Source: a virus. Taken from it: a stretch of 5,171 nt of DNA. Below are positions 845 through 5,081 of the stretch, piece by piece (position 1 is the first letter of the stretch; the number at the start of each line of letters is the position of its first letter). The translations under genes and the position numbers were made by a program. Below the pieces are notes generated by a model that saw nothing but the letters and a program-made list of their open reading frames with translations, did not search any database and was not told the DNA's origin. The stretch is from IMG/VR virus record IMGVR_UViG_3300045988_050557; one strand, given 5' to 3'.

Positions 845-874
845 CACGACACGACGATTTAACGACGTGACGTG
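845..874. repeat. Imperfect inverted repeat built from ACGAC / ACGTG pentamers (iteron-like)
   Basis: ACGAC occurs at 846-850, 851-855 and 862-866. ACGTG occurs at 865-869 and 870-874. The two arms pair 10/12, with two A.A mismatches spaced 5 nt apart. The element starts immediately after the VP2 stop codon. Confidence 0.6.
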
Positions 875-902
875 AATAATTCGTTTTTATTGATGTTTTC
901 TA

Positions 903-927
903 AAACGCAGGACTTGTTCCTGCGTTT
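903..927 (+). terminator. 10-bp stem-loop after VP2; possible weak or leaky terminator
   Basis: AAACGCAGGA / TCCTGCGTTT with loop CTTGT. Only three T residues close the 3' arm before CCCC, so it is not a canonical strong intrinsic terminator. Confidence 0.3.
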
Positions 928-974
928 CCCCTAGGGGACTGGGGGATGGAGTCCCCCAGCGCGGTAACGCCGCG

Positions 975-1003
975 GCACCTTTCCCCTCTTGATGGAAAGG
1001 TGC
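975..1003. promoter_or_regulatory. 10-bp stem with 9-nt loop CCTCTTGAT (candidate Rep recognition or nick hairpin)
   Basis: GCACCTTTCC (975-984) pairs perfectly with GGAAAGGTGC (994-1003). The structure is read directly; the function is inferred. Confidence 0.45.
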
Positions 1004-1093
1004 TAGGTGACACCTAACTAACAGTTAGTGCTCACCGCGGTGAGACCGCGCCGTAAGGCTTACTTGTGTTTTAATGAAAGGACTGATATAATT

Positions 1094-2104
1094 ATGACAT
1101 GTTATCATCCGCTAAAGGCTTTCGCTACAGGAGAAAGGACTAAAAATGGAAAAATTAGTTACATTGTTACTGGCTATGATGCACAGGCTATCATCATTGA
1201 TGGTAAAGGTCGTCGTACTGTGGTTGATTATAATCCTGAGTCTCGTGGTGATAAAGTTCTTCGTGATCCCATAGAGATACCATGTGGTAAATGTTTCGGT
1301 TGCAGATTGAAACGTGCCAGAGATTGGTCTGTTCGTATGATGCTTGAGTCAGAGTATCATGATGAAAACTGGTTTGTGACTCTTACATATAATAATGATC
1401 ACTTACCCATGAATGAGTATGTTGATGATGATGGTGTAATCCAGTTAAAATCTACGTTGTGTAAACGTGATTTACAGTTGTTTTGGAAACGTTTGAGAAA
1501 AAAGCAAGACATTAGGTATTATGCTTGTGGCGAATATGGAACAAGGACTGCGCGTCCTCATTACCATGCTGTTATCTTTGGACTCCATCTTGATCCAGAT
1601 CGGCTTGTCGAGTATCGTTCTCAGCCGTTTCAGCTTTGGACGTGTCCAGAGCTTGAAGAAATTTGGAAATGTGGCTATGTAGTAGTTGGTAAAGTTACCC
1701 AAGAGTCTTGTGAATATACTGCTAGGTACTGCATGAAAAAACTTAACGGCTCTGCCGCTGAAATTTATGATCAATTTAATTTTATTCCTGAGTTTTCATC
1801 CATGAGTTTGAAGCCTGCGATTGGTCGTCAATGGTTTGATGACCATGCGTTTGATATCTATCCAAAGGATGAAATTCAACTCCCTAAAGGTCGCTTAGTG
1901 ACACCGCCTAGATATTTTGACCAGTGTATGGAAAAATTGGATGAGGATTTGATGGTATCCGTCAAGGATGAACGAAAGGACATCGCCGAAAAGCTTGAAC
2001 ATGCTAGATTGCTTGAAACTGCTTTATCTAAGAGTGATTATCTTAAAGTTGCCGAAGTGAATATGAAGCAAAAAATGAAGCGTAAAGTTCGCCCTCTTGA
2101 TTAG
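1094..2104 (+). CDS. VP4: Rolling-circle replication initiator VP4 (HUH endonuclease, phiX174 gpA-like), 336 aa
   Basis: The N-terminus MTCYHPLKAF is typical of gokushovirus-type Rep. Cys cluster CGKCFGCR at 1283..1306. Motif WFVTLTY at 1370..1390. HUH-type PHYHAVIF at 1556..1579. Paired tyrosines in EYTARYCMKK at 1712..1741 are spaced by three residues, as for Tyr343/Tyr347 of phiX174 gpA. I prefer the ATG at 1094 (GAAAGGA at 1076-1082) over the GTG at 1028 given in the ORF track, because 1028 lies inside the hairpin cluster. Confidence 0.93.
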   Translation: MTCYHPLKAFATGERTKNGKISYIVTGYDAQAIIIDGKGRRTVVDYNPESRGDKVLRDPIEIPCGKCFGCRLKRARDWSVRMMLESEYHDENWFVTLTYNNDHLPMNEYVDDDGVIQLKSTLCKRDLQLFWKRLRKKQDIRYYACGEYGTRTARPHYHAVIFGLHLDPDRLVEYRSQPFQLWTCPELEEIWKCGYVVVGKVTQESCEYTARYCMKKLNGSAAEIYDQFNFIPEFSSMSLKPAIGRQWFDDHAFDIYPKDEIQLPKGRLVTPPRYFDQCMEKLDEDLMVSVKDERKDIAEKLEHARLLETALSKSDYLKVAEVNMKQKMKRKVRPLD

Positions 2105-2213: not shown

Positions 2214-2462
2214 ATGAATGAAACGAAGAAAAGTTGTGAAGAAGTCGAAAGACAGGAAGTTGTTTCGCCGGACGGCGAACAAAACGAAGAAAATGAACGT
2301 CAGTCCCCCCACGTTTCGCGGTGGAATTCGTTTGTAAATTCTTTTGTAAGTTGGATGCGTGTATACGGCGAACTGATTTCAGAGATTGTTTTGATGTTGT
2401 GCGTTGCCGGAGTTTGTTATTCCATGGTATGTCTTGTCGAAATTATTTCATTGTTTAGCTAA
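2214..2462 (+). CDS. Hypothetical 82-aa protein: acidic N-terminal half plus C-terminal hydrophobic helix (tail-anchored membrane protein)
   Basis: The ATG at 2214 lies 5 nt after GAAAGGAGA (2201-2209). It is a stand-alone, non-overlapping ORF in the viral gene orientation. The first 36 residues hold 10 acidic and 5 basic residues. The hydrophobic core IVLMLCVAGVCYSMVCLV is at nt 2385..2438. The stop TAA (2460-2462) overlaps the SD AAGGAGG of the next gene. I recognise no family. Confidence 0.6.
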   Translation: MNETKKSCEEVERQEVVSPDGEQNEENERQSPHVSRWNSFVNSFVSWMRVYGELISEIVLMLCVAGVCYSMVCLVEIISLFS

Positions 2463-2749: not shown

Positions 2750-3284
2750 GACTCTTTTTGGTGTTTTGCAGAATATGCCTAAAATGCGTGTTGATGTGGC
2801 TTCTTGTCCCGGTTCGCCTGTTAAGGATAAATTCATTATGGAAGTTACTTCCAAGGGATATCCTTCTCTTCGTAAAACTGGAGAACATAACGTGTATGAT
2901 GAGATTCAGTCTTATCGTGAAGGTTGTGATCTCTCGGCAATTCTTCAGTCATTTGGTAATGAATGTCCTCGTTTCAATCCTCTCGGTTTTGAGGAAGCAG
3001 AAGGTTTTGTAAATGATTTCAGTGATGTGTCTAGTCTCGGCGATCTTGTCAATGACGGTGAGGCTGTTAAACAGTTCTTTAATGAGCTTCCATTGGAGGT
3101 TCGTAACTGTTTTGATAATTCTGTGCATAAGTTCGCTCGCGATTTTACTAGCGAGGGATTCCTCGATAGTCTTAGGAAGGCGTTTAATGTACCGCCTGAT
3201 CCAGTGCCTACCCCAGATCCTCCGTCCTCTGTTGAATCTTCTATTGACGGCGGCGGTGCTGATTCTGATCCTAGCACTGCTTAA
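2742..3284 (+). CDS. VP3: Internal scaffolding protein VP3, 180 aa
   Basis: The block TGEHNVYDEIQSYREGCDLSAILQSF and the later FFNELPLEVRNCFDNS match the conserved core I recall for gokushovirus VP3. The ATG at 2742 lies 5 nt after AGGTGA (2731-2736) and overlaps the upstream stop (ATGATTAG). Alternative starts are GTG 2733, ATG 2775/2784 and ATG 2838. The C-terminus is Pro/Asp/Ser-rich. Confidence 0.8.
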   Translation: MIRTLFGVLQNMPKMRVDVASCPGSPVKDKFIMEVTSKGYPSLRKTGEHNVYDEIQSYREGCDLSAILQSFGNECPRFNPLGFEEAEGFVNDFSDVSSLGDLVNDGEAVKQFFNELPLEVRNCFDNSVHKFARDFTSEGFLDSLRKAFNVPPDPVPTPDPPSSVESSIDGGGADSDPSTA

Positions 3285-3332: not shown

Positions 3333-3350
3333 AGGGGGCGTAAGCCCCCT
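3333..3350 (+). promoter_or_regulatory. GC-rich 7-bp stem-loop with GTAA (GNRA-type) tetraloop between VP3 and VP1
   Basis: AGGGGGC-gtaa-GCCCCCT, read directly. No T-tract follows (CTTCCGTATA), so it is more likely an RNA 3'-end stabiliser or processing signal, or an ssDNA structure, than a classical terminator. Confidence 0.6.
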
Positions 3351-3373: not shown

Positions 3374-5053
3374 ATGTTAGATAATAACTCAAAGTTCAGT
3401 TATGTTCCTGGTACTCGCGCAAGTCGTTCTATTTTTGACTTGAGTAATAGTGTAAAAACTTCTTTTGACGCCGCTCAGCTTGTGCCGTTTTATTATGAAG
3501 AGGTACTCCCAGGAGATACCTTTAATGTGGAAACTAATCTTATCGCTCGTATGCAGACGTTGGTTGCGCCTGTAATGGATGATTTATATTTGGATTTCTT
3601 CTATTTCTTCGTGCCGAATAGAATTGTTTGGGATCATTGGAAGGAATTTATGGGAGAGAATACAAAGTCGGCATGGTATCCGGAAACGGAATACAATGTG
3701 CCGCAGATATCGGTTGCTCCGTCTAAATCTGTAGCTGCTAAATCTGTAGCTGACTATTTCGGAATCCCTCCGATTACAGTTCCGCAAGGTGAAAAGAACT
3801 CTTTCACTTTTTCAGCATTACCTTTCCGCGCCTACGCGGAAATCTGGAACGAATGGTTTAGAGATGAAAATCTTCAAGATCCCGTTCTTGTGGATCATGG
3901 TGATTCCACGCATGTTTATGATGCAAATTCCGCCGTTGATGGTGGCTCTTTGTTATATGCAAACAAGTACCATGATTATTTCACGAGTGCGCTTCCTTCG
4001 CCGCAGAAGGGCGCAGATGTGACAATTCCTATTGGTACTATTGCGCCTGTATATCCTACTAATGCGTCCCAGCTTGGTAATGTTGAGAAGACATATCCTG
4101 TTTCTGTTCTTGAGTGGCGTAACTCTAATGATGCCGCCCTTCCGGCTCGTGGTGGTTTAGGTATTTTAGGATCTGGCGCTACTGATCCGTCCGGTTTGGC
4201 TGGTGTTACGTTTCTTGATCAGGAAGATAATCCTGGTATTTCCGGTAGTCCATATCCATCTAATCTGATCGCGGATATTGGTTCAATTCCTTCTACATCT
4301 ATCAATCAGCTTCGCCTTGCCTTTGCGACTCAAGCTCTCTTGGAGAAAGATGCTCGTGGTGGTACGCGTTATAGAGAAATTATTAAGTCTCACTTTGCGA
4401 CAAATTCTCCAGATGCTCGCCAGCAGGTTCCAGAGCTTTTGTCATATAATCGTGTCCCGATCCAGATCAATCAGGTGGTTCAGAATTCGTCTAGTACAGA
4501 CAACTCCCCGCAGGGAAATACTGCGGCCTATTCTCTCACTGCTGATAGTGACGGCTCTTTTTTAAAGTCGTTCACGGAACATGGCATGGTGATTGGTGTT
4601 ATGTGCGCACGCTATAAGCACACATACCAGCAGGGTTTAGATAAGCGTTTTACTCGCAAAACGCGTTTTGATTATTACTGGCCTCTCCTTGCTAATCTTG
4701 GCGAACAGCCTATTTTAAACCGCGAAATTTACGCGCAGGGAACTGAAAAAGACGGCGAAGTTTTCGGATACCAAGAGGCTTGGAGTGAATATCGGTATAA
4801 ACCAGATATTTGCACATCTGAAATGAGATCAACCTATCCGCAGAGTCTCGATGTTTGGCACTTCGGTGACAATTATAAGTCTTTGCCTACACTCTCATCC
4901 GGATGGATACAGGAGGACTTGAACAATATTAACCGCGCTCTTGCCGTTTCTAGTTCTGTCAGCAATCAGTTCTTTGCTGATATCTACATTAAGAACAAAG
5001 CAACTAGAGTAATGCCAGTTTATTCTATCCCTGGCATGCCTCGTACATTGTAG
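3374..5053 (+). CDS. VP1: Major capsid protein VP1 (phiX174 F-like jelly-roll), 559 aa
   Basis: This is the longest ORF and has a strong SD. The N-terminal pattern RSIFDLSNSVKTSFDAAQLVPFYYEEVLPGDTF, the mid-protein INQLRLAFATQALLEKDARGGTRY and the C-terminal region are hallmark Microviridae capsid motifs. The size fits gokushovirus-type VP1. Confidence 0.95.
   Translation: MLDNNSKFSYVPGTRASRSIFDLSNSVKTSFDAAQLVPFYYEEVLPGDTFNVETNLIARMQTLVAPVMDDLYLDFFYFFVPNRIVWDHWKEFMGENTKSAWYPETEYNVPQISVAPSKSVAAKSVADYFGIPPITVPQGEKNSFTFSALPFRAYAEIWNEWFRDENLQDPVLVDHGDSTHVYDANSAVDGGSLLYANKYHDYFTSALPSPQKGADVTIPIGTIAPVYPTNASQLGNVEKTYPVSVLEWRNSNDAALPARGGLGILGSGATDPSGLAGVTFLDQEDNPGISGSPYPSNLIADIGSIPSTSINQLRLAFATQALLEKDARGGTRYREIIKSHFATNSPDARQQVPELLSYNRVPIQINQVVQNSSSTDNSPQGNTAAYSLTADSDGSFLKSFTEHGMVIGVMCARYKHTYQQGLDKRFTRKTRFDYYWPLLANLGEQPILNREIYAQGTEKDGEVFGYQEAWSEYRYKPDICTSEMRSTYPQSLDVWHFGDNYKSLPTLSSGWIQEDLNNINRALAVSSSVSNQFFADIYIKNKATRVMPVYSIPGMPRTL
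3723..3752 (+). repeat. Perfect 15-nt tandem duplication (2 x CTAAATCTGTAGCTG) inside VP1
   Basis: 3723-3737 equals 3738-3752 exactly. It is in frame and encodes SKSVA-AKSVA (VP1 residues 117-126). Confidence 0.9.
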
Positions 5054-5054
5054 T

Positions 5055-5081
5055 AAGAGGGCTTTGTGCCCTCTTTTTTTT
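5055..5081 (+). terminator. Strong rho-independent terminator after VP1, spanning the circular junction
   Basis: Stem AAGAGGGC / GCCCTCTT (5055-5062 / 5068-5075) with loop TTTGT. A run of eight T (5074-5081) partly overlaps the 3' arm. Positions 1-9 of the window are the same T-tract. Confidence 0.8.

What the first reader, a model, noticed from the sequence alone, without database searches (positions are those of the whole stretch)
845..1060. Hairpin-dense GC-rich intergenic region between VP2 and rep: candidate replication origin or structured element
Seen: about 215 nt with no credible ORF, filled almost end to end with at least nine self-complementary elements (coordinates in the feature list). 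It is visibly more GC-rich than the T-rich coding sequence. The motifs CACCT/AGGTG (976-980, 998-1002, 1005-1009, 1011-1015) and CCGCGG (970-975, 1035-1040) recur. An alternative long-range helix 968-975/1035-1042 would close a multi-branched, cloverleaf-like fold. Known: ssDNA coliphages use folded intergenic ssDNA as complementary-strand origins (the PriA assembly site in phiX174, the primase-recognised hairpins in G4, the RNA-polymerase site in M13). Origins of gokushovirus-type phages are, to my knowledge, not mapped. Inferred: this block is the minus-strand priming signal, the Rep-recognised plus origin, or both. It sits immediately upstream of rep. A structured RNA role (transcript 3' end or stability) is also possible.
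Basis: partly seen in the sequence, partly recalled or inferred. Interest (0 to 1): 0.7.

Follow-up and report, generated by a model that had tools for sequence, protein, structure and literature searches.

The report
Likely replication origin of a gokushovirus
The hairpin-packed spacer in front of the replication gene of this small single-stranded DNA phage holds one hairpin, found unannotated in hundreds of related phages, whose conserved loop matches the known nicking site of phage phiX174, so it is most likely the so far unmapped origin of rolling-circle replication.

Summary
Positions 845-1093 form a 249-nt ORF-free spacer between VP2 and VP4/rep. It is richer in G+C than its flanks and folds far better than shuffles (z -9.6 as DNA, -7.6 as RNA).

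Comparative data resolve it into parts. The core is hairpin H1 at 975-1003, with a 10-bp stem and the loop CCTCTTGAT, followed by a TGACA box at 1008-1012 inside palindrome H2. This roughly 40-nt element is single-copy here. It occurs in 291 GenBank microvirus records, in well over 150 IMG/VR microvirus contigs, in an E. coli gokushovirus prophage and, in variant form, in Chlamydia phage Chp2. It is almost always intergenic and never annotated.

Its stem covaries while its loop stays conserved (yyaCTtGaT), even when the search did not require the loop. A matrix built from those loops ranks the mapped phiX174 and G4 (+) origin nick site first genome-wide. VP4 is a phiX-A-like HUH Rep.

Best reading: H1 plus the box is the VP4-nicked (+) origin, with a predicted cut at CTCTTG^AT, G991/A992. 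The lineage-specific hairpins just upstream may be the complementary-strand origin; this is inferred only. The proposed cloverleaf-closing helix is not supported. This is a new variant of a known kind, and it can be tested in E. coli.

The parts
845..874 (+). Hairpin A, directly after the VP2 stop: CACG.CACG ... CGTG.CGTG, imperfect. It is part of the structured flank 5' of the core element and a candidate complementary-strand origin (inferred).
   Evidence: Fold. In Dulem virus 193 the arms are CGCG.CGCG/CGCG.CGCG, so A-T pairs become G-C at two pairs; helix 1 is 100% paired with two both-side changes.
903..927 (+). Hairpin B: AAACGCAGGA cttgt TCCTGCGTTT, a 10-bp stem.
   Evidence: The near relative L160 carries a compensatory A>T / T>A change in this stem. 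Dulem 193 has a different hairpin, AACCACCC ggaa GGGTGGTT, at the same place. The terminator scan does not call it.
928..959 (+). Palindrome CCCCTAGGGG (928-937) and hairpin C, CTGGGGGA tggag TCCCCCAG (939-959).
   Evidence: Both are unchanged in the 96-99% relatives, so those relatives say nothing about the structure.
960..974 (+). H0: a G+C-rich hairpin, CGCGG taacg CCGCG, abutting the core hairpin. Its sequence is lineage-specific.
   Evidence: Among near relatives the loop is the most variable spot of the spacer, while the stem stays paired (L003/L158: CCGGC tyt GCCGG). Most other microviruses also carry a G+C-rich hairpin immediately 5' of H1, each with a different sequence.
975..1003 (+). 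H1, the core hairpin: stem 975-984 GCACCTTTCC / 994-1003 GGAAAGGTGC, loop 985-993 CCTCTTGAT. It is the predicted VP4 nick site. The predicted cut lies between G991 and A992, by analogy with phiX174 CAACTTG^ATA.
   Evidence: The covariance model scores 65.3 bits at 963-1032 and the next best site in the window scores 7.7. The stem covaries across 47 microviruses: 83% of cells are paired against 31-43% when slid, and 55 both-side-change cells compare with 17 +/- 3.3 in shuffles (0 of 500 shuffles reach this). The loop is conserved in a scan that did not constrain it. A loop matrix ranks the phiX174 and G4 origins first genome-wide.
1004..1016 (+). H2 with the conserved box: TAGGTG a CACCTA, holding (G/C)TGACAC(C), with TGACA at 1008-1012. 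It is the putative Rep-binding part of the origin (inferred).
   Evidence: TGACAC follows H1 at a fixed distance in loci fetched through VP4 rather than through the motif (L001, L005, L006, L009, L010, L011). The box is usually base-paired, either with sequence upstream of H1 or with sequence downstream: the mean longest complement is 5.4 nt against 2.75 expected.
1017..1063 (+). H3 ACTAAC a GTTAGT (1017-1029); H4 CTCACCGCGGTGAG / CGCGGT gag ACCGCG (1031-1050); H5 GTAAG g CTTAC (1053-1063). These are lineage-specific hairpins 3' of the core, of unknown role.
   Evidence: In Dulem 193, H4 becomes CGCGCC tag GGCGCG, with two both-side changes. The stretch CCGT(A/T)AGGCTTACTTG is conserved in sequence with Dulem 193.
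1094..2104 (+). VP4, the rolling-circle replication initiator expected to act on H1. It carries the HUH motif PHYHAVIF and the tyrosine motif YTARYCMKK.
   Evidence: Pfam PF23343 REP_ORF2-G2P, E = 1e-18. BLASTP against phiX174 protein A gives E = 2e-6 and aligns FVTLTY/FDTLTL, HYHAVIF/HFHAVHF and IWKCGY/TWPYGY.

Best explanation
The VP2-VP4 spacer is the replication-origin region of this gokushovirus.

Core. The core is a roughly 40-nt element made of hairpin H1 (975-1003) and, directly 3' of it, a TGACAC box held in the small palindrome H2 (1004-1016).

Proposed mechanism. All of these steps are inferred.
- In the supercoiled replicative form, or in displaced single strands, H1 extrudes and presents its loop CCTCTTGAT as single-stranded DNA.
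- The phage HUH endonuclease VP4 binds, probably using the box.
- VP4 cuts the gene-sense (virion) strand at CTCTTG^AT and becomes linked to the 5' end through one tyrosine of its Y-x-x-x-Y motif.
- The host polymerase extends the 3' OH.
- After one round the regenerated hairpin is cut and the displaced strand is sealed, as for phiX174 protein A.

What is shown.
- The element is single-copy and intergenic.
- It is present across a large part of the gokushovirus-like microviruses.
- Its stem covaries.
- Its loop is conserved and is the best genome-wide match to the mapped phiX174 and G4 nick site.
- Its position relative to the genes varies.

Flanking hairpins. The G+C-rich, lineage-specific hairpins immediately 5' of H1 (845-974) are probably the complementary-strand origin, placed so that they are displaced last, as in rolling-circle plasmids. 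This is a weaker inference, at about 0.35-0.4.
For: 1. Strong structure: z -9.6 as DNA and -7.6 as RNA.

2. Wide distribution. The 40-nt consensus hits 291 GenBank phage records, all microviruses, and almost all hits fall under no annotated feature. Three IMG/VR pattern scans gave 27, more than 45 and more than 118 microvirus-sized contigs.

3. Negative control. For the pattern CCTCTTGAT-N14-TGACA, 47 of 50 unique hits in microvirus contigs have a perfect flanking stem of at least 7 bp. Among hits in other contigs, 89 of 90 have 5 bp or fewer.

4. Stem covariation over 47 sequences, with arm pairs such as GCACAGT/ACTGTGC, GAACAGTT/AACTGTTC, GCCCAGTTAC/GTAACTGGGC and GGACCATCT/AGATGGTCC.

5. 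Loop conservation when the loop was not part of the search. Of 106 unique instances, 40 are CTACTTGAT, 22 TTACTTGAT, 9 TCACTTGAT and 6 CTACTAGAT; the consensus is yyaCTtGaT.

6. Match to mapped origins. A 9-nt loop matrix ranks the known origin first of 10,772 positions in phiX174 (4299) and first of 11,154 in G4 (500), in the register that puts the known G^A cut at loop positions 7/8. The origin sequence and its position were verified.

7. The pC194 origin also contains TCTTGAT (PMC7072734, Table A2).

8. VP4 is homologous to phiX174 protein A, including the HUH motif.

9. The element is not tied to one gene. VP4 is the next major gene in 105 genomes and VP1 in 10; other placements appear. 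In at least five genomes it is antisense to all genes. This points to a strand-specific DNA signal rather than an mRNA element.

10. It lies inside an E. coli gokushovirus prophage, between VP3 and VP1, so it is not the attachment site.

11. For the flank: the 120 nt 5' of H1 are more structured than control segments in 41 genomes (median z -2.9 against -0.4, Wilcoxon p = 1.5e-10) and richer in G+C (0.51 against 0.44). Local hairpins in the window's clade show 7 pairs with both-side changes against 1.6 +/- 1.0 in shuffles. Rolling-circle plasmids often place the dso upstream of rep and need a separate, orientation-dependent folded sso (PMC5703833).
Against: - No biochemical or genetic data exist for any gokushovirus origin, so the nick site is assigned by analogy only.
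- The loop matrix's absolute score at the phiX174 origin is no higher than the best score in shuffled genomes: 42-58% of shuffles reach it. The evidence is the rank of a pre-specified site, not the score.
- The full 30-nt comparison with the phiX174 origin is not significant (rank 6-7). The resemblance of the TGACAC box to the phiX174 binding half is therefore unproven.
- The covariance model does not detect the element in Chp2, phiMH2K or SpV4. Chp2 and SpV4 candidates were found only with a looser hairpin search, and phiMH2K has no convincing one.
- The antisense cases require either that those phages package the non-coding strand or that the model is incomplete.
- The upstream hairpins have no conserved sequence and no known sso motif, so their assignment as a minus-strand origin is by position and structure alone.
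Confidence: 0.7

Rival explanations
1. The whole block, H1 included, is only the complementary-strand (minus) origin. On this view it is a folded ssDNA signal for host primase, PriA or RNA polymerase, as in G4, phiX174 or M13, and the Rep nick site lies elsewhere, for example inside VP4.
For: The region shows strong single-strand structure and its hairpins are kept by compensatory changes. Known microvirus minus origins are intergenic hairpins; the G4 record annotates one at 3970-3998. Bastien et al. interpreted conserved hairpins upstream of Rep in tiny microviruses this way, with reservations (PMC9865509).
Against: The conserved part is the loop sequence, and it is the top genome-wide match to the phiX174 and G4 plus-strand nick site, not to their minus-strand origins. 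A minus origin works only on the packaged strand. The element is intact but antisense to all genes in at least five genomes. This is easy to explain if it defines the packaged strand itself, and hard to explain if the plus origin sits in a gene. Host-recognised origins would be expected to differ with the host. Instead, closely similar loop sequences occur in phages of E. coli and Chlamydia and in gut, aquatic and insect-associated samples.
Confidence: 0.1
2. The hairpins act in RNA. On this view they are transcript 3' ends or terminators after VP2, stability elements, or a 5' leader that regulates VP4.
For: The region also folds well as RNA, z -7.6. Hairpin B (903-927) ends in TTT. The spacer lies between two genes, and a TTGnnn-N17-TATAAT promoter-like pair lies at 1064-1092.
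Against: No terminator-like site is called inside 845-1093, whereas clear ones are called elsewhere, such as 5055-5075 plus a T run. No Rfam family matches. The core element precedes VP4 in some genomes and VP1 in others, can lie about 850 nt from the next gene, and can be antisense to all genes. In the antisense genomes the mRNA would carry the complement of the conserved loop.
Confidence: 0.07
3. H1 and H2 are a double-stranded DNA site for a protein: a dif-like XerCD integration site, or an operator for a phage or host regulator.
For: H1 has an arm-spacer-arm layout of 10-9-10, and H2, H3 and H5 are 5-6 bp palindromes with a 1-nt centre. Some gokushoviruses carry dif motifs in non-coding DNA (PMC7062461).
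Against: In the E. coli prophage the element is intact and internal, between VP3 and VP1, and not at the prophage end. The arms change sequence freely while staying complementary. That pattern is the signature of selection on base pairing, not on recognition of two half-sites by a protein. The loop bears no resemblance to dif as I remember it (GGTGCGCATAA-TGTATA-TTATGTTAAAT).
Confidence: 0.04
4. The region is a neutral or selfish G+C-rich palindromic insertion with no function in the phage.
For: G+C is locally raised. The flanking hairpins differ in sequence between lineages.
Against: The same architecture is kept between the window and Dulem virus 193 despite sequence turnover. The core is conserved across hundreds of genomes. 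It is single-copy per genome.
Confidence: 0.02

Closest known systems
phiX174/G4 (+) strand origin: the 30-nt CAACTTG^ATATTAATAACACTATAGACCAC cut by protein A
   Same: The initiators are homologous: VP4 against protein A gives E = 2e-6 with the HUH motif aligned. The nick core is shared: gokushovirus loops are yyACTTGAT or CCTCTTGAT against CAACTTGAT. The loop matrix ranks this site first in both phiX174 and G4. In most genomes the element lies on the gene-sense (virion) strand.
   Different: The phiX174 origin lies inside gene A and is not a hairpin. Here the element is intergenic and the nick sequence sits in the loop of a 7-20 bp covarying stem. The other 20 nt of the two origins are not significantly similar. 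That cleavage occurs between G and A in phiX174 is from my memory of the literature.
Double-strand origins of rolling-circle plasmids: the pC194/pUB110 family, and the nick-hairpin plus adjacent binding site layout of pT181
   Same: The pC194 origin TTCTTTCTTATCTTGATAATAAGGGTAACTATTGCC contains TCTTGAT (PMC7072734). The general layout also matches: a nick site in a partially palindromic sequence next to a Rep-binding site, a dso often upstream of rep, and a separate folded, orientation-dependent sso (PMC5703833).
   Different: The Rep family differs: Rep_1 or Rep_trans against PF23343. No copy-control elements are evident here. No RSB or CS-6 sso motif is present in 845-1093 (read directly from the sequence). 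That pC194 is cut at CTTG^ATA is from memory.
Stem-loop origins of eukaryotic CRESS-DNA viruses: a conserved nonanucleotide in the loop with a variable stem
   Same: Both have an invariant roughly 9-nt loop and a covarying stem in an intergenic region near rep. By analogy the cut falls after loop position 7.
   Different: The loop sequences are unrelated and the Rep lineage is different. No iterons were looked for here.
Conserved hairpins upstream of Rep in reekeekee- and roodoodoo-microviruses (Bastien et al. 2022, PMC9865509)
   Same: Both are hairpins in microvirus intergenic DNA next to Rep, with conserved loops and compensatory stem changes. Their function is stated as uncertain.
   Different: Those hairpins were discussed as possible minus-strand origins. 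I did not compare their sequences with this element.

Membership tests
Rolling-circle (+) origin (dso) of an HUH-Rep replicon | A cognate HUH initiator is encoded by the same replicon. | tested here: met
   VP4 at 1094-2104 matches PF23343 (E = 1e-18). BLASTP against phiX174 protein A gives E = 2e-6 with the HUH motif aligned. YTARYCMKK supplies a Y-x-x-x-Y motif.
Rolling-circle (+) origin (dso) of an HUH-Rep replicon | A conserved nick sequence is presented as single-stranded DNA, typically in the loop of a hairpin whose stem varies. | tested here: met
   The stem covaries. The loop is conserved in a scan that did not constrain it. Chance pattern hits outside microviruses lack the stem.
Rolling-circle (+) origin (dso) of an HUH-Rep replicon | The nick sequence is related to mapped nick sites of related initiators. 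| tested here: met
   The loop matrix ranks the phiX174 and G4 origins first of about 11,000 positions each. TCTTGAT is shared with the pC194 origin. Caveat: the absolute score is not above the maxima of shuffled genomes.
Rolling-circle (+) origin (dso) of an HUH-Rep replicon | The element occurs once per genome, on the strand that is displaced and packaged. | tested here: inconclusive
   It is single-copy. It is sense to the genes in 115 of 115 genomes and 46 of 48. It is antisense in L034, L046, L007/L163, MK249147 and MG945812. Which strand those phages package is unknown.
Rolling-circle (+) origin (dso) of an HUH-Rep replicon | The site is cleaved and joined by the Rep, and is required in cis for replication. 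| not testable with these tools
   This needs VP4 cleavage assays and mutant phage or plasmid replication assays.
phiX174-type 30-nt origin (Bullavirinae) | The 30-nt sequence is conserved over its whole length and lies inside the initiator gene. | tested here: not met
   The element is intergenic. Only the 7-9 nt nick core is shared. The 30-nt matrix ranks the phiX174 origin 6th-7th, which is not significant. The covariance model finds nothing in phiX174 or G4.
Complementary-strand origins of ssDNA replicons (G4 oric, phiX174 PriA site, M13 ori, plasmid ssoA/ssoU) | Extensive secondary structure of the packaged strand in non-coding DNA. | tested here: met
   z is -9.6 for 845-1093. The 120 nt 5' of H1 are more structured than controls in 41 genomes.
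Complementary-strand origins of ssDNA replicons (G4 oric, phiX174 PriA site, M13 ori, plasmid ssoA/ssoU) | Family-specific sequence motifs are present (RSB and CS-6 TAGCGT in ssoA), or primer synthesis is demonstrated. | tested here: not met
   There is no TAGCG in 845-1093 (read directly). No 6-mer is shared by more than 26% of upstream flanks. No Rfam match was found. Priming cannot be tested here. The role is therefore inferred from position and structure only.
tRNA-like or cloverleaf element | A cloverleaf is detectable by tRNA or tmRNA models, or a closing helix is supported by covariation. | tested here: not met
   ARAGORN finds 0 genes. For the long-range helix 960-973/1037-1050, 56 of 500 shuffles reach the observed covariation, and L003 and L158 break its register.
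dif/XerCD integration site | The site lies at the junction of integrated prophages and resembles the host dif. | tested here: not met
   In the E. coli 06-00048 prophage the element lies inside the prophage, between VP3 and VP1. Kirchberger and Ochman place the dif motifs at the prophage ends (PMC7062461).
Intrinsic transcription terminator | A G+C-rich stem is followed by a T run. | tested here: not met
   No site is called within 845-1093, although 12 are called elsewhere in the window.

The most novel reading that the evidence does not exclude
The hairpin element may be a portable, strand-defining origin cassette for a large part of the non-phiX microviruses. It keeps the ancestral CTTG^AT nick core shared with phiX174 and pC194 but presents it in a hairpin loop. 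It can sit in different intergenic sites and can invert. In the lineages where it is antisense to every gene (L034, L046, L007, MK249147, MG945812), the phage would package the non-coding strand. Those would be 'negative-sense' microviruses, which are not known in this family.
Probability: 0.3. Interest if true: 0.8.

Novelty: new variant of a known kind. Interest (0 to 1): 0.62.

Why it matters
Gokushovirus-type microviruses are among the most abundant ssDNA phages in gut and aquatic viromes. I found no paper that maps or even proposes their replication origin. None of the 291 GenBank records holding this element annotates it.

A defined 40-nt candidate with a predicted cut site has several uses.
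- It makes the origin question directly testable, because the element is present in an E. coli gokushovirus prophage of the kind already resurrected in the laboratory, and in Chlamydia phage Chp2.
- It offers a natural zero coordinate and a strand call for thousands of metagenomic microvirus genomes.
- It offers a cis element for building gokushovirus-based ssDNA-producing vectors.
- It links the phiX174, pC194 and gokushovirus origins through a shared nick core while showing a different way of presenting it.

The antisense cases, if real, would change the assumption that all microviruses package the coding strand.

Tried and rejected
- ARAGORN found no tRNA or tmRNA.
- Rfam at E <= 10 gave nothing in the spacer except a 16-nt chance fragment.
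- The promoter/terminator scan found no terminator-like site in the spacer.
- Megablast of the whole genome against GenBank phages gave only short capsid hits, so there is no close deposited relative.
- A full 30-nt matrix against phiX174 and G4 ranked the origin only 6th-7th, with the score inside the shuffle range. I rejected it as evidence for similarity beyond the nick core.
- The long-range cloverleaf-closing helix is not supported.
- The dif/att idea is rejected because the element is internal to the E. coli prophage.
- The covariance model found nothing in Chp2, phiMH2K or SpV4. A looser hairpin search then gave a convincing Chp2 candidate, a plausible SpV4 one and only a weak phiMH2K one.
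- A search for a shared sequence motif in the upstream flanks found nothing universal.
- A scan of 185,579 species genomes for the 19-mer CCTCTTGATGTAACTGTGC gave one chance hit with no hairpin and no phage genes.
- The metagenome scan with VP4 added only four near-identical relatives, so covariation within the window's own clade rests mainly on Dulem virus 193 and a few point changes. MAFFT mis-registers Dulem 193 at several hairpins, which understates pairing there.
- Eight literature searches found no description of a gokushovirus origin. The original Chp2 and phiMH2K genome papers are not held and could not be checked.
Full report
**What the window is**

The 5171 bases are a circular gokushovirus-type microvirus genome of 5072 nt, with the first 99 bases repeated at the end. 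All genes are on the + strand:
- VP2: 26-844.
- VP4/rep: 1094-2104, Pfam PF23343.
- Small overlapping ORFs: 2214-2462 and 2218-2337.
- VP5: 2474-2749, PF20577.
- VP3 scaffold: 2778-3284 as scanned (the ORF list extends it to a GTG at 2733), PF09675.
- VP1 capsid: 3374-5053, PF02305.

No close relative is deposited in GenBank phages. IMG/VR and metagenome contigs hold relatives whose VP4 is 96-99% identical.

**Check of the observation**

The spacer between VP2 and VP4 runs from 845 to 1093 (249 nt). It has no credible ORF and has G+C of 0.47-0.53 against 0.36-0.41 on either side.

As single-stranded DNA the spacer folds to -62.3 kcal/mol, against -29.1 +/- 3.5 for dinucleotide shuffles (z -9.6). 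As RNA, z is -7.6. No shuffle did as well in either case. The CACCT/AGGTG and CCGCGG repeats are simply hairpin arms.

**First comparative lead**

A sensitive BLAST of the spacer found only two kinds of relatives, Dulem virus 193 and a pig-faeces microvirus, both in unannotated DNA.

Reading them side by side showed that hairpin 975-1003 is kept with different stem sequences. The inner stem arms are CTTTCC/GGAAAG in the window, AGTTAT/ATAACT in Dulem 193 and ATTTAC/GTAAAT in the pig-faeces phage. The closing GCAC/GTGC is kept in all three, as is a following (T/G)AGTGACACC. The loop CCTCTTGAT is identical in the window and the pig-faeces phage.

**How widespread the element is**

- The pattern GCAC-N6-CCTCTTGAT-N6-GTGC hit 27 IMG/VR contigs. 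All are microvirus-sized or carry microvirus genes.
- The 40-nt consensus hit 291 GenBank phage records. All are microviruses, and nearly all hits lie under no annotated feature.
- A looser pattern that leaves the stem free, CCTCTTGAT-N14-TGACA, provided a built-in control. In contigs that encode microvirus VP1 or VP4, 47 of 50 unique hits have a perfect flanking stem of 7-18 bp. In other contigs, where the hits are chance matches, 89 of 90 have 5 bp or fewer.

**Structure test**

I aligned the 47 unique instances. The 10 stem pairs are formed in 83% of cells, against 31-43% when the 3' partner is slid by 1-3 columns. There are 55 cells with changes on both sides, against 17 +/- 3.3 in column shuffles; none of 500 shuffles reached this.

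The outer stem takes many forms: GCACAGT/ACTGTGC, GAACAGTT/AACTGTTC, GCCCAGTTAC/GTAACTGGGC, GACCCAT/ATGGGTC, GGACCATCT/AGATGGTCC and CGTACAGTCC/GGACTGTACG.

**Loop conservation, tested without bias**

The first scans fixed the loop, so I ran one that fixes only the 3' arm and the box: GTAACTGTGC-N4-TGACACC. It returned more than 118 contigs, all but a few of them microvirus-sized.

The 106 unique instances carry these loops: CTACTTGAT (40), TTACTTGAT (22), TCACTTGAT (9), CTACTAGAT (6) and CTACTTGTT (5), plus rarer variants. The consensus is yyaCTtGaT. The pattern is therefore a conserved loop on a variable stem. That is the signature of the stem-loop origins used by HUH initiators.

**Link to a mapped origin**

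The phiX174 (+) origin CAACTTGATATTAATAACACTATAGACCAC lies at 4299-4328 inside gene A and is identical in G4.

A 9-nt matrix made from the unbiased gokushovirus loops ranks exactly that site first of 10,772 positions (both strands) in phiX174, and first of 11,154 in G4. In that register the phiX174 cut, which from memory falls between G4305 and A4306, lies at loop positions 7/8. In the window this is G991/A992.

The absolute score is ordinary for a 9-nt matrix: 42-58% of shuffled genomes reach it somewhere. The evidence is that a site named in advance comes out on top, which has a chance of about 1 in 10^4. The two phages share the origin sequence, so they do not count twice.

A 30-nt matrix does not single out the origin (rank 6-7). 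I therefore claim homology for the nick core only.

Two further points support the link. The pC194 origin also holds TCTTGAT (PMC7072734). VP4 aligns with phiX174 protein A at E = 2e-6, including the HUH motif, and has a Y-x-x-x-Y motif, YTARYCMKK.

**Evidence for a DNA-level, strand-specific function**

- The element is single-copy. In the window the covariance model scores 65.3 bits at 963-1032, and the next best site scores 7.7.
- It is essentially intergenic: in about half of the 42 genomes checked no ATG-ORF of 60 aa or more overlaps it on either strand, and most overlaps in the rest are short or clip its edge.
- Its neighbours vary. VP4 is the next major gene in 105 genomes and VP1 in 10. 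Other arrangements occur, including about 850 nt from the next gene.
- It is on the gene-sense strand in 115 of 115 genomes and in 46 of 48.
- It is antisense to every gene in L034, L046, L007/L163, MK249147 and MG945812. The asymmetric loop and box make the strand call unambiguous.

An mRNA element would not tolerate inversion. A minus-strand origin working with a plus origin located elsewhere would not tolerate it either. A self-contained plus origin that defines the packaged strand would.

**Not an attachment site**

In E. coli 06-00048, a gokushovirus prophage with gene order VP4-VP5-VP3-VP1-VP2, next to hipBA, carries a canonical copy (53 bits) between VP3 and VP1. The copy is therefore inside the prophage. 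Kirchberger and Ochman showed that such prophages are bounded by dif motifs (PMC7062461).

**Isolates**

- The covariance model misses Chp2, phiMH2K and SpV4.
- A hairpin search finds in Chp2, at 2904-2941, an intergenic 14-bp stem with loop TCTACTTGAT, followed by GTGATAGC.
- In SpV4, at 512-544, it finds a 10-bp stem with loop ATTACTTGTTATA, followed by TTGACGAC.
- phiMH2K has no convincing candidate.

**The box and H2**

TGACAC follows H1 at a fixed distance in loci that were fetched through VP4 rather than through the motif.

The box is usually paired. In some genomes it pairs with sequence 5' of H1 and extends the hairpin to about 20 bp, as in L024, L053 and L062. In others it pairs with sequence 3' of itself and forms a separate small hairpin; the window's TAGGTGaCACCTA is of this kind. 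The mean longest complement is 5.4 nt against 2.75 expected. Its role as the Rep-binding half of the origin is inferred from the layout of phiX174 and plasmid origins (PMC5714925 and PMC5703833).

**The other hairpins**

Within the window's clade the local hairpins are 94% paired. Seven pairs show both-side changes, against 1.6 +/- 1.0 in shuffles. Examples:
- An A>T/T>A swap in 903-927 in L160.
- A-T to G-C changes in hairpin A in Dulem 193.
- CGCGGT/ACCGCG becoming CGCGCC/GGCGCG in H4.

The long-range helix that would close a cloverleaf is not supported: 56 of 500 shuffles match its covariation, and L003 and L158 alter H0 so that only the local hairpin survives.

Across 41 genomes the 120 nt 5' of H1 are more structured than control segments of the same genomes (median z -2.9 against -0.4, p = 1.5e-10) and richer in G+C (0.51 against 0.44). 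They share no sequence motif.

This pattern fits a host-specific complementary-strand origin placed just upstream of the nick site. I recall that arrangement from rolling-circle plasmids, and PMC5703833 describes their folded, orientation-dependent sso. It remains an inference.

**Literature and novelty**

Eight full-text searches, and reading of the main microvirus surveys, found no description of a gokushovirus origin or of this motif. Bastien et al. noted conserved hairpins near Rep in two clades of tiny microviruses and left their function open (PMC9865509). Older subscription papers on Chp2 and phiMH2K could not be read, so prior mention cannot be excluded.

**Verdict**

The finding is real. 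Its core is most likely the VP4-dependent plus-strand origin of a large group of gokushovirus-like phages (confidence about 0.7). It is a hairpin-presented variant of the phiX174/pC194 nick site, flanked by lineage-specific hairpins that may serve complementary-strand synthesis.

Noticed in passing
L034, L046, L007:2418-2487 (= L163), L169 (MK249147), L170 (MG945812): The origin-like hairpin element, with its asymmetric loop and TGACA box, lies antisense to every gene in these microvirus genomes. It is sense in more than 160 others. If the element is the nicked origin, these phages would package the non-coding strand.
   Followed up: partly
L168:4989-5058 (E. coli 06-00048 chromosome, NZ_CP015229 about 2049848-2049917): A gokushovirus prophage next to hipBA carries a canonical copy of the element (53 bits) between VP3 and VP1. 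This gives a cultivable E. coli system in which to test it.
   Followed up: yes
L165:2904-2941 (Chlamydia phage Chp2) and L167:512-544 (Spiroplasma phage SpV4): Both isolates have long perfect hairpins with loops TCTACTTGAT and ATTACTTGTTATA, followed by GTGATAGC and TTGACGAC. They are likely divergent versions of the same element that the covariance model missed.
   Followed up: partly
window 2214-2462 and 2218-2337: Two overlapping ORFs in different frames. One encodes an 82-aa protein with an acidic N-terminal half and a hydrophobic C-terminal segment, possibly a membrane or lysis protein. The other encodes a 39-aa very basic peptide (MKRRKVVKKSKDRKLFRRTANKTKK...) resembling the small DNA-binding J/VP8 proteins. 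Neither matches Pfam.
   Followed up: no
window 5055-5081, 2169-2200, 3333-3350: There are terminator-like hairpins outside the finding. A clear one with a T8 run follows VP1. AAGAGTAAC...GTTGCTCTT plus a T7 run follows VP4, in a 27% G+C spacer. A G+C hairpin without a T run lies just before VP1.
   Followed up: no
window 1064-1092: A sigma-70-like pair TTGTGT-N17-TATAAT (TTGAAA in L003 and L004, TTGATT in Dulem 193) is conserved. Its -10 hexamer ends one base before the VP4 ATG, so a transcript started there would lack the VP4 start codon.
   Followed up: no
window 960-974 (H0 loop 965-969): Among relatives whose VP4 is 96-99% identical, the loop of this hairpin is the most variable spot of the whole spacer (TAAC, CTCT, CGTT, CTTT, CAAC, CAAT), while the stem stays paired.
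   Followed up: partly
L108 (9-kb contig) and L091 (part of a 30-kb contig): A complete set of microvirus genes ending at the element is followed by a gene for a 939-aa SLH-domain protein (L108), or is embedded between tailed-phage portal and terminase genes (L091). These are either integrated microviruses or chimeric assemblies.
   Followed up: partly
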